A model generated the notes under the pieces. It worked only from the letters and a program-made list of their open reading frames with translations. It was not told the DNA's origin and ran no database searches. The position numbers and the translations under genes were made by a program. From IMG/VR virus record IMGVR_UViG_3300017917_001172, positions 14,531-78,530 of that record: a stretch of DNA of 64,000 bases. One strand, 5' to 3'. This DNA comes from a virus. Positions 10,917 through 57,082 of this stretch are shown piece after piece; position 1 is the first letter of the stretch, and the number at the start of each line of letters is the position of its first letter.

Positions 10917-12320
10917 TTAACTGCTGGTTTTTAGGTTGTTTAGCATCTGCTTGAGCTTTGAGCTCTGCACCTCAGCCGTTATCTTACCTGATTCTGCTGG
11001 TGCATCGCTGCTTGATGTTACCGTTGGTTTGCTCTTGATGCTATCGATGATCGAGCTAGTGGGCTTCTTGAACTGTGGTGATCCTTCATCTTCACCTAGG
11101 TCACGTATGCGCAAGCTGTCCTGATCAAACTCGAGATCAACCTTCTGGCCCACGCCGCTTGAACTACGTGTCTTCATGAGCTGCAACTGATAGCGCCCAT
11201 GTTCCTTCATTGACCTGCTGGTGAAGATACCAAACACGTTGTCTGCTGTATTGATCTTGGAGATACCACCCGAGATGTGGCTGTGATCAAACTCGATCTC
11301 TTCTACCGCGCTTCTGTTAAGCTGAGAAGCGGTGACCAAGACCATGTCTAGTTCTTTGGCCAAGTTACGCAGTTCTTCTGACACATACTTGTCCTTGACG
11401 AACAAGTCTGAGGGACTGACCTTGGCGCTGACTGGCATCAGCAGATCGAGATAGTCAACGCAGATGTAGCTGAGCTTGTGCCCAGTCTGCACTTGCAGTT
11501 CCTTGAGATAACTGCGCAAATCGTTCACGTTGCTCTGTGCTGGCATGTACTTGATCCTCAAGCTGCCTGCTTTCTTGCCTACCATCTTGATCTTCATCTC
11601 AACGGTATCGAGATCCTTGAAGATCTCCTTGCTGGGCACGCTGGTCAGCATGCTATCAATACGCATGGCACAGAGCTCTTCGCTAAGTTCTAGCGTGATG
11701 TAAGCACCATCTAGTCCTGCTGTCATCCAGTTAACTGCTAGGTTCTGCATGAACAGCGATTTACCTGCACCAGATCCGCCTGCGAAGATCTCAAGCTCGC
11801 CCCTGTTGAAACCACCATATAGTTTGTTGTCTAGCACTGGCCAACCAGTTGACATCTGGCCGTTGCTAGACTTGAGCTTCATCAATCGCCCACGCGGGTC
11901 CTCGAAGTAATCCAAGCCTAGATTGCGTGTCAAGCTGATCTGCACTGCATCCTTGACCAGCTTCTCGATGGGATCATACTCGCCCTTCTCGATCAAGTCT
12001 GCGCTTTCTAGGATCACTCGCTTTAGCGTCTCATGCCTCGTGAATGATTCAAACTCATCCATGAACCAATCGATCATGCTGTCTTCAAGCTTGTCAATCT
12101 TGTTCAGCTCTGTGCCTGTTTCAGCCTTGACTTGTTCAGCACTGGGAAGATCGTTGTACTTCTTGCTGTAGTCACGCAAGAACGTTGATGCTGCCTTCAA
12201 GCTGCGATCAAAGTTGATGGGATCAAATATGTTCTGCACACGCACGAAGCTTTGGGCATCAGACAGCATGATCTCCAAGAACAGTTTCTGTAGATCTACT
12301 GAATAATCCTTAGATGCCAT
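10917..12320 (-). CDS. gp41: Replicative DnaB-family helicase (T4 gp41-like)
   Basis: Walker A GGSGAGKS, ITLELSE, VDYLDL, TASQLNR, MKTR. Confidence 0.93.
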   Translation of the reverse strand: MASKDYSVDLQKLFLEIMLSDAQSFVRVQNIFDPINFDRSLKAASTFLRDYSKKYNDLPSAEQVKAETGTELNKIDKLEDSMIDWFMDEFESFTRHETLKRVILESADLIEKGEYDPIEKLVKDAVQISLTRNLGLDYFEDPRGRLMKLKSSNGQMSTGWPVLDNKLYGGFNRGELEIFAGGSGAGKSLFMQNLAVNWMTAGLDGAYITLELSEELCAMRIDSMLTSVPSKEIFKDLDTVEMKIKMVGKKAGSLRIKYMPAQSNVNDLRSYLKELQVQTGHKLSYICVDYLDLLMPVSAKVSPSDLFVKDKYVSEELRNLAKELDMVLVTASQLNRSAVEEIEFDHSHISGGISKINTADNVFGIFTSRSMKEHGRYQLQLMKTRSSSGVGQKVDLEFDQDSLRIRDLGEDEGSPQFKKPTSSIIDSIKSKPTVTSSSDAPAESGKITAEVQSSKLKQMLNNLKTSS

Positions 12321-47199: not shown

Positions 47200-47718
47200 A
47201 TGAGTGATTGCTTGATCTTAAACGCAGATTATCGTCCGCTTTGCTATCTGCCCCTTTCCACGATTCCGTGGCAGCAGGCAGTCAAGCTTAGCTTCTTGGG
47301 TCGAATCAAGATCCTAGAAACATATGATGATTGGGAGGTCCGTAGCCCCAGCACCATAATGAAGGTGCCTGCACTAGCCATCACCCGAGAGTACATGAAG
47401 TACAAGCGAGCAGTTCGCTTCTCTCGCAAGAACCTGTATCTGCGCGACTTGTATCAGTGCCAGTACTGCGGGGAGACTTGTGACACGCATGAGTTAACAA
47501 TCGACCACGTGATCCCGGTTTCCAAAGGCGGCAAGACCACGTGGGACAACTGCGTGACGGCTTGCTATGATTGCAACTTCGAGAAGGGTAACAAGCATCA
47601 GCTGCCCAAGAGGTTGCCTTTCAAGCCCGAGTATTGGCATCTTGTGGGCGCAAACGCTGAAAAGCTAGGTTGGCACATCAAGCATCCTAGCTGGAACGAC
47701 TACATGAACATCAAGTAG
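47200..47718 (+). CDS. HNH endonuclease (McrA-like)
   Basis: LILNADYRPL, RDLYQCQYCG, TIDHVIPVSKGG, CYDCN..KGN; promoter TTGGCG-16-TATAGT. Confidence 0.88.
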   Translation: MSDCLILNADYRPLCYLPLSTIPWQQAVKLSFLGRIKILETYDDWEVRSPSTIMKVPALAITREYMKYKRAVRFSRKNLYLRDLYQCQYCGETCDTHELTIDHVIPVSKGGKTTWDNCVTACYDCNFEKGNKHQLPKRLPFKPEYWHLVGANAEKLGWHIKHPSWNDYMNIK

Positions 47719-48469
47719 ATTTCATTTTACAGTTGTCTTGATGCCAACGTAAATGATTGCCTTTAGTATTTTCCTTGCCGCAATGTTCACACTTGTATAA
47801 GACGGACATTGCGGCAATATAGTTTTTACGTTCCTCTTCGGTTGGCACACGTCCTTTAATTTTAGCTCGTTGTTTTTCAACTGCTTCTCTATTTTTAGGT
47901 TTTCCTTTAAGCGATGCTGATATTTTTTGCTTAAATTCTTCTGATCTTGTGTAAGTTTTACCTAAATTTATTTCTCTTAATTTTTGTTTAGTTTCATTAG
48001 TATGAGGCTTGCGAGGTTTACCTTTTTGTTTTTTTGATTGTAACGCACGGTGTTCGTCGGTTCTAACTTTGCCAACATTTTTTCCCTTCATTGATTCGGA
48101 TAATTTCTTTTTTGCTTCTTCGCTCATTGGTTGTCGCGTTTTTCCTAAATGAGCTTTTGATATTTTTTCTTTTGTTTCATCTGACAACTTACTTCCTTTT
48201 TCTGCACCTTTGCCACCATCGCCGCCATCTGTTTGGTTTCGTAATATTCCAGTTCCCTTATCAATTCTTCCGTACCACCGAATAAGCCAACACTCTAACG
48301 CTAGACTTCCTGTAACTGTAAGATTGTTTTCAACAATAATAATTCTATTAGGATCAGTAGGCTTTCCGACTTCGTATCTGCCCTTGTCCCAAGCTCTTTT
48401 TCCAGAGCCTTTACCAATGTAATACGGAGAACCGTCCTCTCGTAAATATGCGTAAACATAGTATTTCAT
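47711..48469 (-). mobile_element. Free-standing GIY-YIG-type homing endonuclease with NUMOD3 repeats
   Basis: YYVYAY..YYIGKG, NQTDGGDG, repeated S.E.K.K.S motifs, terminal CEHC; markedly AT-rich. Confidence 0.8.
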
Positions 48470-48507
48470 ATGTTTATTTATCACCAGTTAGTTACAGTTA
48501 AGTGAAG

Positions 48508-48708
48508 TTAGATAGGAGTTTCTTTTGTTAATGCTGTTCGTGCAAACCAAAGCCTAAACCAAGCATCTGTGCCAGGCTCTATCTTGCGTTCTTGCTGTAT
48601 AGCAGCCTTCTCAGTGCCAGTCATGCTGATGTTGCTGCCCACTTGCACTGGGCTCATGCTGGCAAGATTCTTTATCCCAGCTAACGCTCTGAGAGTATCG
48701 ATATCCAT
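48508..48708 (-). CDS. Small hypothetical phage protein
   Basis: LRALAGI, NISMTGTEK, IEPGTDAWFRLWF. Confidence 0.7.
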   Translation of the reverse strand: MDIDTLRALAGIKNLASMSPVQVGSNISMTGTEKAAIQQERKIEPGTDAWFRLWFARTALTKETPI

Positions 48709-49085
48709 CAGACGCCGTACTTGTTCTTCTTCTTAGCTGCTACAGGGCTGACAGAATTAGTGTCTTCAGCTTCTTGGCTGCGCATGTCGCCGTGGTTGAG
48801 ATCTTCGTGATCAGCACCTACTGTGTTATAGGCATGCCTTAGCATCTCATGTTCAATGTCACTGTAAGGATGTGCGCTCTTCTTCTTGCCTATCCAGCTC
48901 TTAGCGTCCATCTCTATGGGATTGATGCCATCGGCACAGGCCAGCGCAAGGCTAAGCCTGTACATGGTATAATCGCTGTTCATCTTCTCGTTGTCAGAAT
49001 AGAGATGGAGACCACGTGTAGCACGTTGCTGATCGCTTGGCATCTTGCCTTGCTTAGCTTCGTTTATGAACTCCTTGGCGCGCAT
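48708..49085 (-). CDS. Putative internal head protein
   Basis: Start revised to MRAKEFINEA (TGATG coupling). Confidence 0.6.
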   Translation of the reverse strand: MRAKEFINEAKQGKMPSDQQRATRGLHLYSDNEKMNSDYTMYRLSLALACADGINPIEMDAKSWIGKKKSAHPYSDIEHEMLRHAYNTVGADHEDLNHGDMRSQEAEDTNSVSPVAAKKKNKYGV

Positions 49086-50347
49086 CACACAATCTTTGAG
49101 ACTGGCTTCTTGGACCACATCCTGCATGACCAGTAGCCAGCCTTAGTGCGATCCTTCTTGTCAGAGCAGTTGTGGCGAGCGCGGAAGTTCTTCCTGCGAG
49201 CTGGGTTGTCGCGCTTGATCTCCATGTTCTTGTCACCAAAGTTGACCTTCTTAACGTTACCACTCTTGGGATCACGCACATAGACCTTGTACTTCTTGAC
49301 GTCACCCGACATTGGCTTGCCTAGCTTAACATCGCGACCTTGATATTCTGCTTCATCGACCTTGTTCATCTTTTTTAGCTTAGCGATCTTTGTTCTGATT
49401 GCATCTAGCTCTTGGCTAAGTGGATCATTCAATCCTACTTTACCACCTTGCTTAACAATGCTGTCGATCTTATCGCTGATCTCAAGTGCTCTTGCTTGCA
49501 GCATCTTGATCTTTTCATCTCTGCGAGGTGCCATCAGATCATTACCTGCCATCTTGGCCAGCATCTTCTCTGATGTTTCTGCTAGTCCAGAAAGCTTAAG
49601 AAGGTGGTTGAGATCTTTGCTGTCTTCAAGCGTGTCTGTTACTTTCAATACCTTGTAACCTTTACCTTCGGCCTTCTCTTTGGCTTCGCTTGATGTTACT
49701 GCACTGATCTCTAGTGTTTGCTTGTCGTAAGTCTCAGGATCAACTACCAACACCTTATAGGACACTTCTGCGCCTTCAGTAGCAATAGACTCACCCCAAT
49801 CCTTGCGGTCATCTGTTTCTGAGTAACCTGCATTGTAAGCAGCGATCTCAGCAGGATCGGTCAGAGGAACCAGTTCCATCTCACCTTGCACGCCGCCAGC
49901 TTTTGGTGCTAGCTTGTGTGGCCTACGACTGCGACCATAGTAAGCATCAGCACTACCGCGATCATATGGACTACCATGAGACTTATCATGTTCTTCTTCG
50001 ATCTTGTCACCTTCTTTCCTTCCGGACATACCAGTGACAGCTCGATTGACAGAATCTCTATGCCATCTTTCCCACTTGTCTCTTTCCTTGGTGCCTTTTC
50101 TTGCGCCTGTCTTGATGTAGCCTATCTCGTTGGCATCGCGTGGATCTTCGTAATCTTCCAAGACGCCAAGTTCTTCCAATATGGCCATACCACGATCATC
50201 CATGGCCAGCGTTATACCATCTTCTGTGCTTTCTAATACTTCTGTCTCGAGATTGAGCACCTCGTTGATAGAGATGTCAAACTCATCACCCACTGAGGGC
50301 TGTGTCAATGCTAGCTCGGCTTCAGACAGATAACGCTTGAGATCCAT
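49085..50347 (-). CDS. Multi-module putative internal head protein
   Basis: MDLKRYLSEA; HGSPYDRGSADAYYGR module; C-terminal KKVNFG..RRKNFRARHNC..GYWSCRMW module. Confidence 0.6.
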   Translation of the reverse strand: MDLKRYLSEAELALTQPSVGDEFDISINEVLNLETEVLESTEDGITLAMDDRGMAILEELGVLEDYEDPRDANEIGYIKTGARKGTKERDKWERWHRDSVNRAVTGMSGRKEGDKIEEEHDKSHGSPYDRGSADAYYGRSRRPHKLAPKAGGVQGEMELVPLTDPAEIAAYNAGYSETDDRKDWGESIATEGAEVSYKVLVVDPETYDKQTLEISAVTSSEAKEKAEGKGYKVLKVTDTLEDSKDLNHLLKLSGLAETSEKMLAKMAGNDLMAPRRDEKIKMLQARALEISDKIDSIVKQGGKVGLNDPLSQELDAIRTKIAKLKKMNKVDEAEYQGRDVKLGKPMSGDVKKYKVYVRDPKSGNVKKVNFGDKNMEIKRDNPARRKNFRARHNCSDKKDRTKAGYWSCRMWSKKPVSKIV

Positions 50348-50350
50348 GTC

Positions 50351-50989
50351 TTATTCCTTGCCCATGTTTTCAAACATCTTGGCTAGCTTGCCTTCCATTT
50401 CCTTGACTGCCATTGGGTTGTCTCCACCAGCAGCGGCCTTGTAAGCGCCCTTCTGCTTGTGTAGATCATCACCGGCCGGAACAGCAGCGCCTACTTCACG
50501 CACCTTCTCGTCTGGTGTGTTAGCGTAGGCAGGATCTCTATCAGCTTCAGCAACCTTCTCATCTGCTTGCTTTGGCTCCATGCCAGCTAGCTTGAGGATG
50601 CCTACTAGTGCAGCGGCTTCGTCACCATCAGCTTGGACGACGATTGATTCCTCGACCTTGCCTTCCTTGTCCTTGACCGCCTTCTTCATTGGCTCAGACT
50701 TGTTACCGTCCTTGTCCATGTCGAGGAAGTCTGGCTTAGCAGCTTCAGTTGCCATGCTTTCCCTGACGTTAGCTTCGATGAACAGTATGACTTCCCATAG
50801 GTCGTTCACTAGCCTGTTAGCAAACCCTGGAGGAAATTGACCTGTTGACTCTGCCTGCTTGGACATGCCGCGCAGGTCACTCAGCAGGTTAATAATCTCC
50901 TTAGACGAAACTGCCTCAGTGAGATCAGCTCGGGGCTCTTGTGTTGATTCCATTGCTGATAGCTTCTTCAGCAGACTGTTCATATCCAT
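50351..50989 (-). CDS. Putative prohead core/internal protein
   Basis: Acidic; LTE-A, ATE-A and VAE-A sites; PDFLDMDKDGN motif. Confidence 0.55.
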   Translation of the reverse strand: MDMNSLLKKLSAMESTQEPRADLTEAVSSKEIINLLSDLRGMSKQAESTGQFPPGFANRLVNDLWEVILFIEANVRESMATEAAKPDFLDMDKDGNKSEPMKKAVKDKEGKVEESIVVQADGDEAAALVGILKLAGMEPKQADEKVAEADRDPAYANTPDEKVREVGAAVPAGDDLHKQKGAYKAAAGGDNPMAVKEMEGKLAKMFENMGKE

Positions 50990-51006: not shown

Positions 51007-52344
51007 TTACACGCAATTGTTTGTTCTTTGATCGTAGTAGAACTTACCGTTATTTGGATCAAAATGCTTGTACCAGAGTTCATTGCTTGAATAGCAAGCA
51101 ACTGCACCTGGGCCTGCATAGCATATAGCTGATCTTACTTGTCCTGGGACCTGCTTGACGTATGACTTGCAACCGACGTTGTTTGTACCAACGCTGTTGT
51201 AGTAAGCATAGTCAGGACTATCTGAGTAGATCCTTGGATTAGTTGGCTGTGGAGCTGGTGCTGGTGGGCAAGGAGTTCCAGGAATACCTGGCTCTGGTCT
51301 TGCTGTGTTTGCAAGCTGATTCCTCACTGAACCTATTCCTCTACCTATCTCATCGCACTTGGTATTGATGAAGGTCCTGTTCTTGTTGCTGATCTGATTT
51401 TGCTTCTTGACGAACCTCTCGAGCTCCTTGACATCAGCGATGAGGTTAGCATACTCTACGTCTCTGCTGACTGCGCCCTTTTCTCTAGTGCTAACAAACC
51501 TGAAGGGATCGCTAGCTCTTGCTTGCTCGATGTTTGCGCGGACCAATGCAAGCTCAGCAGCATATCCATTTGAAACGCTGTTGCTTGGCCTATTAGGTAT
51601 GTTACCTAGGCCGTTGCAGGTTGCGCTTCTCTGTGCTTCTGCAGAATCGAGAAGATTGATAGTTCCAGCTGGAACAGGATTTACAGTGACTACAGGTGGC
51701 TGGTATGTGTAGTTGTAATATGTTCCTGGCACAGCATGGTATCCGGTAGTCACGCCACCAGTATAGCTAACTGCTATGCTAGCTGCTGCGTTTGGTGGTG
51801 GATTAACAGTTATGGTGTTACCATTGACACCTACAGTCAATGGCTGGCCAACACGACCTGCTGTCACTACTGGATCTGGTGGAGGAGCTGGCTTCTTCTT
51901 CTTGCCGCTGCCGCCGCCCTTGTTGTGTACCATGATACCGTCAGCGATGAAAGCATGGGTCTTGTCAACTGTGATGTCAAACAGCTTGATCTTACCGCCC
52001 TTGTACTTGCGAACAGTGATGTCCTTGGCAAAGCCGTCGTCTGTCATGATCTGCTTGGCATCAAGTGCAGACTTGAATTCCTTGCTTGGAGTGTAGAACA
52101 GCTGGCTTGCTGCTACGATCATCTGCTTGTCGCCCGTGTCTACTTCTAGCACATCTTGGAATATGTCAGACCAGGTGTTAAGCACCCTTGACTTGGTGTA
52201 CTTGCCTGTGACGGGATCAAAGCTAGCGATCTCTTCGCCCTCTGTGATCTTGCTGATTGGCTTAACTTTTCCGTTAGCCATCAACACTGGTGTCTCTGCG
52301 GTAAATCCGCTGACCCACTCTTCATTTACCCTAGCTTTAGACAT
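51007..52344 (-). CDS. Protein with N-terminal Hint (intein-like) domain and unknown C-terminal cargo
   Basis: GFTAETPVLMANG..KPISKI..G...LFDITVDKTHAFIADGIMVHN (aa 13-141). Confidence 0.8.
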   Translation of the reverse strand: MSKARVNEEWVSGFTAETPVLMANGKVKPISKITEGEEIASFDPVTGKYTKSRVLNTWSDIFQDVLEVDTGDKQMIVAASQLFYTPSKEFKSALDAKQIMTDDGFAKDITVRKYKGGKIKLFDITVDKTHAFIADGIMVHNKGGGSGKKKKPAPPPDPVVTAGRVGQPLTVGVNGNTITVNPPPNAAASIAVSYTGGVTTGYHAVPGTYYNYTYQPPVVTVNPVPAGTINLLDSAEAQRSATCNGLGNIPNRPSNSVSNGYAAELALVRANIEQARASDPFRFVSTREKGAVSRDVEYANLIADVKELERFVKKQNQISNKNRTFINTKCDEIGRGIGSVRNQLANTARPEPGIPGTPCPPAPAPQPTNPRIYSDSPDYAYYNSVGTNNVGCKSYVKQVPGQVRSAICYAGPGAVACYSSNELWYKHFDPNNGKFYYDQRTNNCV

Positions 52345-52348
52345 GACA

Positions 52349-52528
52349 TCATCCTTCTAATTTTAGTACCATGCTTAATCCGCCTTGGCCTGGTATAGCC
52401 CTGACGGTGTATAAATCTTGAGCTTTAACTGTGTGCAAGTTAGCTGCGGCAGCTTTGTTGCCGGTGCTTACCTTGTTAGCAGCAGTCTCTACTTTCCTAG
52501 TATTTACTATAATATTTGCATTTGCCAT
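52349..52528 (-). CDS. Small 59-aa protein between the Hint genes
   Basis: MANANIIVN... starts by TGATG coupling and fills the gap. Confidence 0.45.
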   Translation of the reverse strand: MANANIIVNTRKVETAANKVSTGNKAAAANLHTVKAQDLYTVRAIPGQGGLSMVLKLEG

Positions 52529-53979
52529 CAGTATAGCCCTTCCCACTGATCTGCTGGACCAACCTTGACCCATCCTGAGTTCTTGTTATAGCCGTATAGA
52601 AAACCACGTACCGTGCGATATCTGTAATAAGCTGCACCTAAACCGCCGGTAAGAGCAGGAGTGGTAGTCGTTCCAATGCTGCTGGTAGTAGTGGTCACAT
52701 ATTGACCAGGGGCAGTCTGTACATATAGTGGGGATTGCGGCGTAACTGGTGCTGGAAGATTTATAGGTGCCGGCATGCCTGGCAAGGTATAGTCAATTGT
52801 TGATTTTCCGGTACCGACATACTTTCCTATCACACCTTTGGATCTATCTATTGGTACTCTTACCTGCGAGCATGCATTTATGACCAATGCTGTTGGACCA
52901 CCACTAGTAGTATAGTCTGTGATAGAACTGTATATTGATCTAATGTATGCGATCATCTGTAGTATTTCAGTGTTGTATATTTGCAAGGTGCTTTTATCGA
53001 ACTTCGAAATCTTCTTGCTGGCTGAAACACGGGCATAAGAATCAGCAGTTAGCTGATCTGAATATCTAAGATATTCAAGAGCAGCAGTCCTTATGGTAAA
53101 GTAATTCGTGGAGGTATAGTTGGCCATTATATCGCAGATGTAATCCAAGTTCTGCTGAAGAGCTTGGAATGCTGCATAAGCCATAGCCTCTGGTGTTGGT
53201 GCTGGTTCCTTCTTTGTCTTGCCATCGCCTTTGGTCTTCTTTAGAGATTTCTGCGAATTGTTGTTCTTTAGGTACTGGGAGTTTTGTCCGTTGCCTACCT
53301 TAGAGACACCGTTGTTTTGTCCGCCGGCACCGCCGCCAGCTCGACCAGTGCTGCTACCATTACCTAAGCCGCCACCTCTGTTATTACCAGAGCTTGATCT
53401 TGAACTGTTGCTTGTTCCTGCACCTTTGTTAAGGCCGGCGCCGCCGGGCCCTTTTGCGCTAATACCGCCTGGTCCTGCGGTTACACTCGTACCACCGGGT
53501 CCTTTTACGCTAACACCATCCTTGCCTACGCTTACGTTTCCGCCGCCAAGGTTAATATTGTGAACCCTAAACCCATTAGCAACCAAGCTGTGATGATCAT
53601 CAACCATGATGTCATACACCTTGTATTTGCCTGCTGTGGTCTTTTCCACAGTAAACGCCTTAGCATTGCCTTCTGCATCTGTGACATAAGCAGTATCGAT
53701 CGCATTGTGCCAGTCAGCACTTGGTGTTAGGAACAACTGGCCGCGAGCTACCATCACTGCGCTGTCATCAGTCTTGACTTGGATGATGTCTCGAGTGATA
53801 TAGCTAAACGTGTCAATGACTTCCATAGGCTCGAGCTCGCTAGCAGCGTCCTGCTGATCAAAGCTCATAACCCAATCGCCAGGAACGATCTTCTCGATCG
53901 GCTTCAACTTGCCGTCGGCCATCAGCACGACCGTGCCTTGTACGAATCCTACTTGTGTGTCATTGACTACAGTTTTCAT
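52528..53979 (-). CDS. Protein with N-terminal Hint domain, Gly-rich linker and helical cargo
   Basis: GFVQGTVVLMADG..KPIEKI..GD...VYDIMVDDHHSLVANGFRVHN (aa 11-141). Confidence 0.8.
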   Translation of the reverse strand: MKTVVNDTQVGFVQGTVVLMADGKLKPIEKIVPGDWVMSFDQQDAASELEPMEVIDTFSYITRDIIQVKTDDSAVMVARGQLFLTPSADWHNAIDTAYVTDAEGNAKAFTVEKTTAGKYKVYDIMVDDHHSLVANGFRVHNINLGGGNVSVGKDGVSVKGPGGTSVTAGPGGISAKGPGGAGLNKGAGTSNSSRSSSGNNRGGGLGNGSSTGRAGGGAGGQNNGVSKVGNGQNSQYLKNNNSQKSLKKTKGDGKTKKEPAPTPEAMAYAAFQALQQNLDYICDIMANYTSTNYFTIRTAALEYLRYSDQLTADSYARVSASKKISKFDKSTLQIYNTEILQMIAYIRSIYSSITDYTTSGGPTALVINACSQVRVPIDRSKGVIGKYVGTGKSTIDYTLPGMPAPINLPAPVTPQSPLYVQTAPGQYVTTTTSSIGTTTTPALTGGLGAAYYRYRTVRGFLYGYNKNSGWVKVGPADQWEGLY

Positions 53980-54569
53980 CTTGCTGAGCTCTTTACTGCT
54001 GGCATGTTGGCTTTGTTAGAGCCCACTGGGCTTGACTTGCCTTGTGGTAGATCGTTTGTGGTCTGTGCCTTAGCTGTGTTGCCTCCAGCTGCCTTGGTCT
54101 TAAACACGCTCTTGAGACCCTTGAGGAACTCCTTGTTGTGCTTGTCACCAAATGCCTGCTTCTTGTCTCCTTTTGGATATGGAGCAGTCAGCTGGACCTC
54201 ATATTCCTTTTCTTCTTCTGCTACCTCTTCTTCACGATCAGACTCGTGTGGATCGTTAGCATTGTAAACGCGAACGTTAGCTTCTGGTAGCTTAGCGCAG
54301 GAGCAGATGGTTTCCTTGATCTCACGTGGAGTAGCAGGATAGTTCACTACCACTTCCATGATGTTTACTTCGGAGTTGGTGATGTCTGGAAAGTCCTGCG
54401 GGTGCTCTTGTATTGGGGTTCTCTTGGGCTTAGAAATGCTCTCTAAACCAAACTTTTCCAGGTTGCGCTCCATAGCGTCAACTTGATCCTCAGAAACCTC
54501 GCCGGCGATCTTGACGCGGAATTCGTAGGTTTTCTGGCTCTCAATTAGGAATTCTTTGAATGATCTCAT
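53976..54569 (-). CDS. Putative head protein
   Basis: Start revised to MRSFKEFLIES; TAAATA at 54590-54595; GAGGA SD. Confidence 0.65.
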   Translation of the reverse strand: MRSFKEFLIESQKTYEFRVKIAGEVSEDQVDAMERNLEKFGLESISKPKRTPIQEHPQDFPDITNSEVNIMEVVVNYPATPREIKETICSCAKLPEANVRVYNANDPHESDREEEVAEEEKEYEVQLTAPYPKGDKKQAFGDKHNKEFLKGLKSVFKTKAAGGNTAKAQTTNDLPQGKSSPVGSNKANMPAVKSSAR

Positions 54570-55860: not shown

Positions 55861-57064
55861 AAGGTGCGCTCCTGGTCCTTGAATCGGTGCTAGGCAATGG
55901 CGGGTATGATTCTAAGAAAGCTTGCTGCTCTGCAGGAGTTAATCCTGCTGGAATCTTAGGGTCTATTATCAGAGAAGAAGTTATCTCGTTGTTGACCGTG
56001 AACTGGCCTATGGAGCTCTGTTGATTGCTAGATATTGCTGCACCATTGCTAGTCACCTTAGTTGATCTATTGACTATGCCTTGGCTAATCCTCAACTGTG
56101 CATTGATGTCAACTAGGTTGCTGAGATTGTTGATCTCGGTTGCTGTAGGGAAGCTGAAACGCCTGTTCCTCTGTAAGCTATTAGCAGCATTGACCTTGAT
56201 CTGCTGCTGCTGTTGCTTGCTAACCTTGACTGGTGCTATAGGCTGTAGATCGAAATTGCTTATAGGAAGCAATCTTGGCCTAGATACCTGTTCCCGTTCG
56301 GTAAAATCAACTTGCTTGCGAGTCTGCGGTACTGGATTAAATCCTGGTTTCAGATCAGAAAAAGCATTATCGTAATAAGGGCTAGTGACGCCAAATCCAG
56401 GTATAGCCTCAGTGACACCATCAGCGTACAGCACGTTCTCATATTCTAGTCGCATGGTAGCCTGCATGATCTTGCCACCTTCAGCATAATCGTGGGTATC
56501 AAAATCAAAGCTTGATATCATGGGATTGATCAAGGTGTACTTGTTATACACATGGTCGCCCATGCTGTATATTTCCACGCTCTTGAGGAATCTTCCTTGG
56601 GTGTTATTATCAAGGCCATATTTGGTAGCTAATCTTACTGGGCTGTAAGTGTCGTCTATCTCATAAGCTTGTGCCGTGATGTTGCTGTCAGCAAAGTAAT
56701 ACTGATTGTAAGTACGCCACATGTTTCGTATGGTGCCATTCCTGTCATCATGGAACACTATGCTTACTGGTTCGTAAGTGATCTTCTTCTGGAACACTTC
56801 TTTCTTGTTGTACTTGTTGAGCACGTCAGTTTCTATGTTAAACTTAGGTAGATCAACAGACTTGACTAATATGCTTAGCGTGATAGGATCTGCTGCTCCC
56901 TGCTGGTTGAAAACCATGCGCACATGGAAGCTAAAGCCAAACTTTGGCGCATTAGTATAACCAGGGTCGCTTACATAAGCATAGCTAGCATGGCGAAAAT
57001 CTCGCACGTTGCCTAGCTTTTTCTTAGATCCATTGTTTGATTTATCGTCACTAACTTTTGCCAT
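55853..57064 (-). CDS. Tail tube-like baseplate/tube initiator protein
   Basis: VKSVDLPK, YNKK, YEPVSIVFHDD, LINPMI, LEYE resemble the tube fold; TATAAATA at 57072-57079. Confidence 0.6.
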   Translation of the reverse strand: MAKVSDDKSNNGSKKKLGNVRDFRHASYAYVSDPGYTNAPKFGFSFHVRMVFNQQGAADPITLSILVKSVDLPKFNIETDVLNKYNKKEVFQKKITYEPVSIVFHDDRNGTIRNMWRTYNQYYFADSNITAQAYEIDDTYSPVRLATKYGLDNNTQGRFLKSVEIYSMGDHVYNKYTLINPMISSFDFDTHDYAEGGKIMQATMRLEYENVLYADGVTEAIPGFGVTSPYYDNAFSDLKPGFNPVPQTRKQVDFTEREQVSRPRLLPISNFDLQPIAPVKVSKQQQQQIKVNAANSLQRNRRFSFPTATEINNLSNLVDINAQLRISQGIVNRSTKVTSNGAAISSNQQSSIGQFTVNNEITSSLIIDPKIPAGLTPAEQQAFLESYPPLPSTDSRTRSAPYV

Positions 57065-57082
57065 CGTACATTATTTATAGCC

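What the first reader, a model, noticed from the sequence alone, without database searches (positions are those of the whole stretch)
51007..53979. Tandem N-terminal Hint-domain proteins built for C-terminal self-cleavage only
Two paralogous ~130-aa Hint domains start 10-12 residues from the N-terminus. Both have Gly in place of the Cys1 nucleophile (GF) and lack the block-B TxxH (AASQLF, ARGQLF). Both keep the block-F Asp/His and the terminal His-Asn at exactly residue 141. The +1 residues are Lys and Ile, so splicing is not expected, but Asn cyclisation could release ~300-340-aa cargos with new N-termini (KGGGSGKKKK..., INLGGG...). The cargos share a layout of Gly/Lys linker, helical region, Pro-rich stretch and aromatic tip. 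With a 59-aa ORF between them, they sit in the late head operon. Inference: an auto-processing pro-domain system for maturing or triggering virion proteins or effectors, like a pretoxin-HINT without a carrier.
Basis: partly seen in the sequence, partly recalled or inferred. Interest (0 to 1): 0.8.

Follow-up and report, generated by a model that had tools for sequence, protein, structure and literature searches.

The report
Self-cutting intein-like caps on phage proteins
Two neighbouring late genes of an uncultured jumbo T4-like phage each begin with an intein-type (Hint) domain that has lost everything needed to cut at its front but strictly keeps everything needed to cut at its back, so each protein most likely snips off its own 15.7-kDa cap to release a basic four-helix protein of unknown role; nobody has tested this.

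Summary
Window 52528-53979(-) (483 aa, B) and 51007-52344(-) (445 aa, A) share only their first ~145 residues (41% identity, E 5e-30). That part is a Hint fold. Its best solved relatives are Tetrahymena BUBL BIL2 (profile E 4e-16; Z 14.9), the C. thermocellum BIL domain and DnaB mini-inteins.

In 63 family members, Gly replaces Cys1 (63/63) and Gln replaces the block-B His (63/63). The window's two Hint pieces contain no Cys. Block-F Asp (63/63), block-F His (62/63) and the terminal His-Asn (63/63) are kept. Conservation falls sharply after Asn141. The +1 residue takes 13 identities and is never Cys, Ser or Thr.

A translationally coupled 59-aa gene lies between B and A. The B-small-A trio is syntenic in six further phage lineages or contigs. 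It sits in a tightly packed late operon among head-protein genes of a PA5oct/Rak2-related jumbo phage.

The cargos are not detectably homologous. Both models show a disordered linker, a four-helix bundle and a small beta tip, and no function could be assigned. In sister-lineage orthologues, Cys1-bearing Hint domains follow the cargo, which supports a processing role.

Cleavage by Asn cyclisation is inferred, not shown. No cultured phage carries the family. The scan earlier reported similar cleavage-only Hint caps on collagen-like fibre genes of other uncultured T4-like phages.

The parts
52528..53979 (-). Gene B: 483-aa pro-protein (Hint cap, low-complexity linker, four-helix bundle, beta tip)
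   Evidence: ORF. 27 homologues, all from metagenomes. Model m45ee3021a39a.
53557..53949 (-). Hint domain of B, residues 11-141 (Gly11 at the Cys1 position; Gln81; Asp123; His130; His140-Asn141)
   Evidence: pLDDT 75-89. VIA-align Z 14.9 to BIL2 6tmm, 13.8 to the gp41-1 intein, 13.1 to BIL 2lwy. Invariant columns.
53554..53559 (-). Predicted scissile bond of B, Asn141|Ile142
   Evidence: Conservation drops from 1.0 at residues 134-141 to 0.40, 0.04 and 0.08 at residues 142-144. The +1 residue is variable.
53209..53553 (-). B linker, residues 143-257: Gly/Ser/Asn-rich, predicted disordered, hypervariable
   Evidence: pLDDT 23-49. Majority-residue fraction 0.34. Alignment.
52816..53193 (-). B cargo four-helix bundle, residues 263-388 (conserved 'DYICD' and 'DK' motifs)
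   Evidence: Helices 263-286, 290-320, 326-351 and 361-388. Only generic helical-bundle fold matches. Homologous helical domain in P0041-P0073.
52555..52725 (-). B C-terminal beta tip, residues 419-475 (conserved R-x-V-R-G-[FY] ... G-W-x-K-[VI]-G-P-A-D-Q)
   Evidence: Strands. Near-invariant columns. Replaced by Cys1 Hint domains or G/S tails in the sister lineage.
52349..52528 (-). Conserved 59-aa gene between B and A; its start overlaps the stop of B (TGATG)
   Evidence: Sequence. Orthologues of 56-59 aa at the same place in L003, L004, L005, L013, L015, L016 and L017. No family or Atlas match.
51007..52344 (-). Gene A: 445-aa pro-protein (Hint cap, Lys/Pro-rich linker, four-helix bundle, WW-like beta tip)
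   Evidence: ORF. 15 homologues. Model m489ea1ed734d.
51922..52308 (-). Hint domain of A, residues 13-141 (Gly13, Gln81, Asp123, His130, His140-Asn141)
   Evidence: pLDDT 77-90. Foldseek E 2.9e-12 to BIL2 6y75; TM 0.85 and rmsd 1.9 to BIL 2lwy.
51919..51924 (-). Predicted scissile bond of A, Asn141|Lys142
   Evidence: H140 and N141 are invariant; conservation falls after Gly143.
51676..51915 (-). A linker, residues 144-223: Lys/Pro-rich start, then the conserved 'PDPVVTAGKVGQPLTV-VNGN' stretch; predicted disordered
   Evidence: pLDDT 26-46, but majority-residue fraction 0.67. Alignment.
51307..51669 (-). A cargo four-helix bundle, residues 226-346 (invariant Cys243 and Cys330)
   Evidence: Helices 226-247, 255-278, 294-314 and 320-346, pLDDT about 85-94. 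Invariant columns. Only generic fold neighbours.
51025..51231 (-). A C-terminal small beta domain with the WW-like motif 'YKHFD-NG-FY'
   Evidence: Strands 382-438. Pfam WW E 0.012, below the cut-off, in 2 of 15 members.
57072..57079 (-). T4-type late promoter core TATAAATA at the head of the tightly packed gene string that contains B, the 59-aa gene and A
   Evidence: 3 matches in the window, 1.3 expected. It lies 8 nt upstream of the 403-aa gene, which starts at 57064. Gene overlaps and short gaps down to 48508.
53976..54569 (-). Upstream neighbour: internal-head-protein-like gene. The true start is probably ATG at Met11 ('MRSFKEFLIE...'). Its stop region overlaps the start of B.
   Evidence: PHROG virion structural protein E 8e-9 and internal head protein E 1.6e-4. 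The PA5oct homologue EST35_0202 is an MS-verified structural protein. Orthologues start at MRSFKEF or MKSFTEF.

Best explanation
A and B are pro-proteins. Residues about 11/13 to 141 fold as a mini-intein/BIL-type Hint domain that acts once, in cis, as an asparagine lyase. The side-chain amide of Asn141 attacks its own peptide carbonyl, helped by the penultimate His140 and the block-F His130/Asp123. This forms a C-terminal succinimide and breaks the Asn141-X142 bond.

No thioester step is possible. The Cys1 position is Gly, the block-B Thr/His are Ala/Gln, the Hint pieces contain no Cys, and +1 is not a nucleophile. The outcome is therefore cleavage, not splicing.

The products would be an acidic 15.6-15.7-kDa Hint piece and a basic cargo (A: 304 aa, 32.4 kDa, N-terminus KGGGSGKKKK; B: 342 aa, 35.5 kDa, N-terminus INLGGG). 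Each cargo is a long flexible linker carrying a four-helix bundle and a small beta tip.

The two genes and a coupled 59-aa gene form a conserved module in the late structural (head-side) operon of a clade of uncultured PA5oct/Rak2-related jumbo phages. The cargos are therefore most likely virion-associated or morphogenetic proteins. The Hint cap would be a self-removing pro-domain, used for timing, masking or targeting.

Shown here: the fold, the residue pattern, its conservation, the synteny and the late-operon context. Inferred: the cleavage itself, its timing, the virion location and the role of the cargo.
For: - **Fold.** Foldseek of model A gives BIL2 6y75 (E 2.9e-12), BIL 2lwy (TM 0.85, rmsd 1.9) and DnaB mini-inteins. 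VIA-align of model B gives BIL2 Z 14.9, gp41-1 Z 13.8 and 2lwy Z 13.1.
- **Sequence profile.** The profile matches BIL2 at E 4e-16, with residue-by-residue equivalence of GF to C1-F2, AxxQ to TxxH and HN to HN.
- **Residue pattern.** In 63 family members drawn from 1.84 billion representatives, G 63/63, F 63/63, Q 63/63, block-F D 63/63, block-F H 62/63 and terminal HN 63/63. The +1 residue has 13 identities and is never C, S or T.
- **Conservation break.** Conservation falls sharply after N141.
- **No alternative nucleophile.** There is no Cys in either Hint piece of the window.
- **Pfam.** All 15 A-family members and 10 of 25 B-family members hit PT-HINT. The B-type orthologue in L015 passes the PT-HINT cut-off (33.6 against 27.7 bits).
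- **Sister-lineage orthologues.** In the same synteny (L017 5995-7965; P0048, P0056, P0061, P0068) the same helical cargo is followed by Cys1-bearing Hint/Vint-like domains. The cargo there is bracketed by processing domains.
- **Established chemistry.** A-type BIL domains with terminal His-Asn cleave their C-terminus through Asn and do not ligate (PMC7765530). A BIL domain ending WVHN sits directly before CdiA-CT toxins (PMC9086364). HINT autopeptidases sit directly upstream of released toxin domains (PMC3482391).
- **Late structural context.**
- **Trio synteny.**
- **Age of the duplication.** B-type Hint domains of both lineages form one clade (96/97), so the A/B duplication is older than the lineage split.
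Against: - No experiment, proteome or cultured phage exists for this family. tblastn against 50,697 phage records found only true inteins.
- The window's own proteins score below every Pfam Hint-clan gathering threshold.
- Gly13, Phe14 and Gln81 are invariant, and a cleavage-only role does not explain that.
- The Hint piece is the best-conserved part of both proteins (0.74-0.78). That is unusual for a throw-away pro-domain and fits a domain with a lasting job.
- Three of the 63 members have Pro at +1, which may disfavour cleavage.
- The late-promoter evidence is one 8-mer. 10 of 100 shuffles give at least 3 matches in the window.
- The cargo function is unknown. Only generic four-helix-bundle fold matches were found.
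Confidence: 0.6

Rival explanations
1. The Hint fold is a permanent, non-cleaving N-terminal module, for example an assembly or docking domain. The His-Asn and block-F residues would be kept for structural or binding reasons, and the proteins would function at full length.
For: The Hint piece is the most conserved part of both proteins, and its non-catalytic positions (G13, F14, Q81 and the N-terminal 'K-V-N' peptide) are invariant too. The acidic Hint and basic cargo could stay associated. No cleavage data exist.
Against: Exactly the four residues needed for Asn cyclisation are kept in 62-63 of 63 members, while the N-terminal catalytic residues are all replaced. Conservation ends abruptly at Asn141, and a hypervariable linker follows. 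Relatives bracket the cargo with a second, Cys1-bearing Hint, which makes sense only for processing.
Confidence: 0.22
2. The module is a phage-delivered toxin or effector pair with an immunity or chaperone gene. The Hint would be a pretoxin-HINT that releases a harmful C-terminal effector in the infected or a neighbouring cell, and the 59-aa protein would neutralise it.
For: The Hint domains hit PT-HINT, below threshold in the window and above it in the L015 orthologue. The cargos are basic helical bundles. A small conserved gene sits next to both. The C-terminal end of B-type proteins varies between lineages.
Against: No toxin family or fold matches either cargo. The module has a fixed place in the structural operon, and its cargos are conserved over deep divergence rather than swapped as cassettes. 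There is no carrier or trafficking domain. One small gene would have to serve two unrelated cargos.
Confidence: 0.1
3. The Hint domains are decaying remnants of selfish inteins inserted near the 5' ends of two host genes, with no function of their own.
For: Inteins are common in phage genes of this group, for example in the terminases of Rak2 and K64-1 (PMC5259590). A free-standing GIY-YIG homing endonuclease gene lies nearby at 47711-48484.
Against: No Hint-less allele of either cargo was found. The domains have no endonuclease insert. The Hint part is under stronger conservation than the cargo and is retained in both paralogues across lineages. A dead intein that cannot splice would not leave a working host protein unless it cleaves.
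Confidence: 0.03

Closest known systems
A-type bacterial intein-like (BIL) domains (Amitai 2003 and Dassa 2004, as summarised in PMC7765530); solved examples are C. thermocellum BIL (2lwy) and Tetrahymena BUBL BIL2 (6tmm, 6y75)
   Same: Same Hint fold, and these are the best sequence and structure matches. They share the terminal His-Asn, the lack of a nucleophile at +1, and cleavage at the C-terminal junction by Asn cyclisation rather than ligation. Both sit next to variable, non-housekeeping sequence.
   Different: BIL domains keep Cys1 and the block-B TxxH and can also cut or transfer at their N-terminal junction. Here those residues are Gly and AxxQ in 63/63 members, and the domain has no Cys. 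The domain sits at the extreme N-terminus (10-12-residue leader) of phage late proteins rather than inside secreted bacterial proteins.
Pretoxin-HINT (Pfam PF07591) releasing peptidases of polymorphic toxins (Zhang et al. 2012, PMC3482391); BIL domain ending WVHN before CdiA-CT (PMC9086364)
   Same: The Hint domain lies immediately upstream of the part to be released. The predicted autoproteolysis is at the Hint C-terminus. Weak to significant PF07591 matches occur across the family.
   Different: There is no N-terminal carrier, trafficking or repeat region. The cargo is not a recognised toxin and is not polymorphic. There is no demonstrated immunity gene. The window's own scores (19.4 and 16.4 bits) are below the 27.7-bit cut-off.
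Engineered cleavage-only intein tags (Cys1-to-Ala mini-inteins such as Ssp DnaB or Mtu RecA variants used for tag removal; my own knowledge, with structures among the fold hits)
   Same: The nucleophile at position 1 is removed, the terminal Asn with penultimate and block-F His is kept, and the domain is placed N-terminal to the protein to be released. The outcome is C-terminal cleavage only.
   Different: Those are laboratory constructs derived from splicing inteins. This would be a natural, anciently fixed version, and block B is also replaced.
T4-type capsid-targeting propeptides removed by the prohead protease (T4 IPI-III; my own knowledge; CTS-like N-termini in the neighbouring genes)
   Same: An N-terminal piece is removed from basic proteins encoded in the head-gene region of a T4-like phage.
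   Different: Those are 10-residue peptides cut in trans at L/I-x-E by the prohead protease. Here a 141-residue domain would cut itself. Packaging of A and B into heads is not shown.
Cleavage-only N-terminal Hint caps on tandem collagen-like fibre genes of other uncultured T4-like phages
   Same: Paired neighbouring phage genes each start with a Hint domain that has lost the front-end residues and kept the back-end ones.
   Different: The cargos here are not collagen-like. The shared-word look-up found no look-alike stretch in earlier windows. Here a conserved small gene lies between the pair, and the host is a jumbo PA5oct-related phage.

Membership tests
Hint (Hedgehog/intein) superfamily fold | Horseshoe-like all-beta Hint fold of about 130-150 residues | tested here: met
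   Foldseek E 2.9e-12 to 4e-9, target TM 0.72-0.85. VIA-align Z 13-15. PDB profile search E 4e-16.
Hint (Hedgehog/intein) superfamily fold | Match to a Pfam Hint-clan model above its gathering score | tested here: inconclusive
   The window's A and B are below the cut-offs (best 20.5-21.3 bits). Family members pass: the L015 B-type orthologue scores 33.6 bits on PT-HINT, and P0048 passes several models.
Canonical (class 1) intein | Cys, Ser or Thr nucleophile at intein position 1 | tested here: not met
   Gly in 63/63 members. It aligns to C1 of BIL2.
Canonical (class 1) intein | Block-B T-x-x-H | tested here: not met
   A/G-x-x-Q, with Gln in 63/63 members.
Canonical (class 1) intein | Terminal (His-)Asn with block-F Asp and His | tested here: met
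   HN 63/63, Asp 63/63, His 62/63.
Canonical (class 1) intein | Cys, Ser or Thr at +1 of the C-extein | tested here: not met
   The +1 residue is K, G, I, M, V, P, A, L, D, F, W, N or E and is never C, S or T.
Canonical (class 1) intein | Insertion in a conserved host protein that also exists as intein-less alleles | tested here: not met
   No Hint-less relatives of either cargo were found. The 'N-extein' is only 10-12 residues long.
Class 2 / class 3 inteins (no position-1 nucleophile) | Class 2 needs a +1 Cys that attacks the N-junction directly. Class 3 needs the block-F Cys of the W-C-T triplet. | tested here: not met
   The +1 residue is never Cys, the block-F:4 position is Asp in 63/63 members, and there is no Cys in either Hint piece of the window.
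A-type BIL domain | N-terminal Cys and block-B motif | tested here: not met
   Gly and AxxQ.
A-type BIL domain | C-terminal His-Asn without a +1 nucleophile | tested here: met
A-type BIL domain | Demonstrated autocleavage | not testable with these tools
   This needs expression of wild type against N141A.
Pretoxin-HINT module of polymorphic toxins | Hint directly upstream of a C-terminal toxin domain, with N-terminal trafficking or carrier region and an adjacent immunity gene | tested here: not met
   The Hint starts at residue 11 or 13, so there is no carrier. The cargos match no toxin family. The 59-aa gene has no family. The cargos are conserved in fixed synteny.
Virion (structural) protein | Detected in purified particles | not testable with these tools
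   There is no cultured member. Only context is available: the PA5oct homologue of the upstream neighbour is MS-verified as structural.

The most novel reading that the evidence does not exclude
The Hint cap is a protease-independent, self-timed pro-domain that first docks the basic cargo into the assembling head or neck through its conserved acidic surface and N-terminal 'K-V-N' peptide. It then frees the cargo by Asn cyclisation. In sister-lineage orthologues, the extra Cys1 Hint behind the cargo would leave the cargo's C-terminus as a thioester. The cargo would then be covalently attached to a virion or host target, a phage counterpart of the ATP-independent BUBL/Hedgehog conjugation chemistry.
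Probability: 0.15. Interest if true: 0.85.

Novelty: new variant of a known kind. Interest (0 to 1): 0.6.

Why it matters
If cleavage is confirmed, this would be a natural, anciently fixed version of the cleavage-only intein tag that biotechnology had to engineer. It would sit at the very N-terminus of phage late proteins. It would add a third way of maturing T4-type phage proteins, alongside the prohead protease and C-terminal chaperone domains.

It would define a conserved three-gene module in a clade of uncultured jumbo phages whose products are otherwise unexplained.

It would also supply new small, Cys-free self-cleaving domains. Relatives with a Hint-cargo-Hint layout would make Hint-mediated protein conjugation in viruses directly testable.

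Tried and rejected
- **Cultured phages.** tblastn of A, B and two distant orthologues against 50,697 phage records found nothing except true inteins in helicase and terminase genes.
- **PHROGs.** No family for A, B or the small ORF.
- **Cargo function.**
  - Pfam scans of every family member gave only Hint-clan hits plus a sub-threshold WW match.
  - ESM Atlas on the A cargo gave only generic helical rows with TM below 0.5.
  - VIA-align wide search on model B gave designed helical bundles, talin, TIP47 and IpaD at Z 11-15, within the stated noise range for helical bundles.
  - The beta tips and linkers were barely tested.
- **Homology between the cargos.** hhalign found none beyond residue 148.
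- **Hint-less cargo relatives.** A cargo-only search returned only Hint-bearing proteins.
- **The 59-aa protein.** The Atlas gave no usable hit.
- **PA5oct.** It has no Hint gene at the equivalent place. Its gene there (EST35_0203) is an unrelated acidic structural protein.
- **Rooting the Hint tree.** The outgroup, the gpJ-associated Hint, has a branch length of 4.5, so I draw no order of events beyond monophyly of the B-type clade.


Full report
**What is there**

The window is part of a 78.5-kb IMG/VR virus record that CheckV estimates to be 22% complete. Its large terminase is 54% identical to that of the jumbo Pseudomonas phage PA5oct. The next best matches are Sinorhizobium phage Phosso, Agrobacterium phage Atu_ph07 and a 349-kb Vibrio phage. 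The window also carries a T4-type gp32, UvsX, tail sheath and tail tube. It is therefore a fragment of an uncultured jumbo T4-like myovirus.

On the minus strand a string of overlapping or nearly abutting genes runs from 57064 down to 48508. It is headed by an exact T4 late-promoter core, TATAAATA, at 57072-57079. This is weak evidence on its own: 3 matches occur in the window against 1.3 expected. The genes, in order, are:

- a tube-like 403-aa protein;
- a 123-aa protein;
- a gp4-like head-completion protein (PHROG 218, E 2e-43);
- a 146-aa protein;
- an internal-head-protein-like gene;
- B (52528-53979, 483 aa);
- a 59-aa gene (52349-52528);
- A (51007-52344, 445 aa);
- four more small or acidic proteins.

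A GIY-YIG homing endonuclease gene and the terminase follow. The PA5oct homologue of the gene just upstream of B is an MS-verified structural protein.

A and B share only their first ~147 residues: 41% identity, E 5e-30, and profile-profile E 4.9e-37 confined to residues 4-148. AlphaFold models built on 15 and 25 homologues give a confident beta-rich domain at residues about 10-143 in both (pLDDT 75-90).

- Foldseek matches this domain to the BIL2 domain of the Tetrahymena BUBL1 locus (E 2.9e-12), the C. thermocellum bacterial intein-like domain (TM 0.85, rmsd 1.9 Å) and DnaB mini-inteins.
- An independent aligner gives Z 14.9, 13.8 and 13.1 to BIL2, the gp41-1 intein and the C. thermocellum BIL.
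- A sequence profile of six window and locus Hint domains finds BIL2 at E 4e-16.
- The printed alignment puts the phage G-F on Cys1-Phe2, A-x-x-Q on the block-B T-x-x-H, and V-H-N on the terminal His-Asn.

**Conservation**

The two families have 15 and 27 close homologues, all from metagenomes and none named. A profile search of 1.84 billion representative proteins found 11,393 Hint-containing proteins. Together with the close homologues, this gave a coherent set of 63 proteins that start with this domain. In these 63:

| Position | Residue | Count |
|---|---|---|
| Cys1 position | Gly | 63/63 |
| Next residue | Phe | 63/63 |
| Block-B His position | Gln | 63/63 |
| Block-F Asp | Asp | 63/63 |
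| Block-F His | His | 62/63 |
| Terminal dipeptide | His-Asn | 63/63 |
| +1 residue | 13 different residues, never Cys, Ser or Thr | – |

In the B family the majority-residue fraction is 1.0 for residues 134-141 (0.92 at residue 137). It drops to 0.40, 0.04 and 0.08 at residues 142-144. Neither Hint piece of the window contains a Cys. No class 2 or class 3 route (a +1 Cys or a block-F Cys) is therefore available.

The Asn-cyclisation residues are selectively kept, the N-terminal chemistry is completely lost, and conservation breaks at the predicted scissile bond. This is the main argument for self-cleavage. Established knowledge supports the chemistry:

- A-type BIL domains with terminal His-Asn cleave their C-terminus through Asn without ligating (PMC7765530).
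- A BIL domain ending WVHN precedes CdiA-CT toxins (PMC9086364).
- HINT autopeptidases sit just upstream of released toxin domains (PMC3482391).

**The cargos**

After Asn141, A has a Lys/Pro-rich stretch followed by a conserved but low-confidence segment (PDPVVTAGKVGQPLTV...). A four-helix bundle follows (226-346, pLDDT about 90, invariant Cys243 and Cys330), and then a small beta domain with a WW-like motif (Pfam WW E 0.012, below threshold).

B has a 115-residue hypervariable Gly/Ser/Asn-rich linker, a four-helix bundle (263-388) and a conserved beta tip.

The layouts are alike, but no sequence homology is detectable. Fold searches return only generic helical bundles. No Pfam or PHROG family matches either cargo in any member. 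The cargos are basic (pI 9.3 and 9.7) and the Hint pieces acidic (pI 6.1 and 4.7). I could not assign a function.

**The module is conserved**

The 59-aa gene between B and A starts on the last base of B's stop codon and ends 4 nt before A. The same B, small gene, A order, in the same neighbourhood, occurs in two groups of contigs:

- three related contigs, L003, L004 and L005;
- a more distant lineage, L013, L015, L016 and L017. Their B-type genes match window B at only 31% identity over most of the protein (L013) or at 43-52% over the Hint region alone. The small protein there is 56 aa.

B-type Hint domains of both lineages form one well-supported clade (96/97). The A/B duplication therefore predates the split of these lineages. 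This fixed, deep synteny argues against a swappable toxin cassette. It favours a standing role in virion formation or early infection. PA5oct itself lacks the module, and no cultured phage has it.

**Relatives that strengthen the processing reading**

In the sister lineage the B-type gene at the same position can be 656 aa (L017 5995-7965). It ends in a Cys1-bearing Vint/Hint-like domain without His-Asn. Representatives P0061 and P0068 have the same layout. P0048 and P0056 carry one or two complete Cys1...His-Asn Hint domains behind the same helical cargo (P0048 scores PT-HINT 66 bits and Vint 47 bits).

In these proteins the helical domain is bracketed by a back-cutting Hint in front and a front-cutting Hint behind. 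This is the logic of Hedgehog and of the BUBL loci, where BIL2 transfers the upstream ubiquitin-like domain to a lysine (PMC8616854). It makes a purely structural role for the N-terminal Hint less likely. It also raises the possibility that in those relatives the cargo leaves with a reactive C-terminal thioester.

**What remains unexplained or argues for caution**

- The window's own proteins are below all Pfam Hint thresholds.
- Gly13, Phe14, Gln81 and the short N-terminal 'K-V-N' peptide are invariant without a role in Asn cyclisation.
- The Hint piece is better conserved than the cargos. This suggests it does more than cut, perhaps docking or masking the basic cargo.
- Three of the 63 members have Pro at +1.
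- Cleavage, its timing, virion location and cargo function are all untested.

I put 0.6 on self-cleavage as described. The rivals score 0.22 for a non-cleaving structural Hint domain, 0.1 for an effector or toxin module and 0.03 for intein remnants.

**Comparison and novelty**

Mechanistically this works like an A-type BIL or pretoxin-HINT domain and like the engineered Cys1-to-Ala cleavage tags. It is not a member of the intein classes or of A-type BIL as defined, because the position-1 nucleophile and block B were tested and not met. It is not a polymorphic-toxin module either, because it has no carrier, toxin or immunity evidence. I class it as a new variant of a known kind.

Earlier notes of this scan describe comparable cleavage-only N-terminal Hint caps on paired collagen-like fibre genes of other uncultured T4-like phages. 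The scan has therefore seen the principle before on other DNA. This window shares no detectable look-alike sequence with those findings, has non-collagen cargos, and adds the conserved small gene and the jumbo-phage head-side context. I did not check those notes.

Noticed in passing
L006 7899-11657 (also L007, L008): In a lambda-like siphovirus tail module (tape measure, gpM, gpL, gpK, gpI), the 1252-aa gpJ-like central fibre protein starts with a 20-residue leader. A complete Hint domain follows, with Cys1 ('GGGGCFIGKT') and ending 'IRVHN|AGLG' (+1 Ala). This is another N-terminal Hint cap on a phage virion protein, here with the front-end nucleophile kept.
   Followed up: partly
proteins P0074, P0075, P0079, P0084, P0136, P0141, P0159, P0160 and others: Many signal-peptide proteins consist of 3-6 Hint domains placed back to back with almost nothing between them ('...FARGGGGCFLPGT ... 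FAVHNKGGCFLPGT ...'). I did not look into what these tandem Hint arrays are.
   Followed up: no
window 53976-54569, 48708-49085, 49085-50347; L003, L004, L013, L015: Neighbours of the Hint genes start with T4 internal-protein-like capsid-targeting sequences ending in L/I-x-E ('MRSFKEFLIE', 'MRAKEFINE', 'MDLKRYLSE'). The listed 207-aa and 139-aa ORFs probably start at these internal ATGs. The second ATG overlaps the stop of the upstream gene by one base.
   Followed up: partly
window 48508-48708, 50351-50989, 49085-50347; PA5oct EST35_0203 (L009 11322-12818): A short motif 'L-[KR]-L-[AS]-G-[IVLM]' recurs in these head-region proteins (MDIDTLRALAGI, GILKLAGM, LLKLSGL; PA5oct MFNINDILRLAGV, ISKLAGI). 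It could be a protease or assembly signal of this phage group.
   Followed up: no
L005 6204-7315: In one contig the A-type gene is broken into a 249-aa piece (Hint plus linker) and a 115-aa piece (C-terminal part). The middle of the helical bundle is missing, while B and the small gene are intact. This is either a deletion variant or an assembly error.
   Followed up: no
window 47711-48484: A free-standing GIY-YIG-type homing endonuclease gene (PHROG 314, E 2.7e-18) sits between the head-protein operon and the large terminase. In L017 a similar gene sits at a different place in the same operon (11594-12217).
   Followed up: no
window 49085-50347 (C-terminal 90 residues): The 420-aa protein ends in a conserved basic, Cys-containing tail ('KYKVYVRDPKSGNVKKVNFGD...RRKNFRARHNC...YWSCRMW'). 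It matches DUF5754 (E 6e-4, below cut-off) and PHROG 7595 (E 4.5e-12). The tail is kept in all related loci, while the rest of the protein varies greatly in length (313-524 aa).
   Followed up: no
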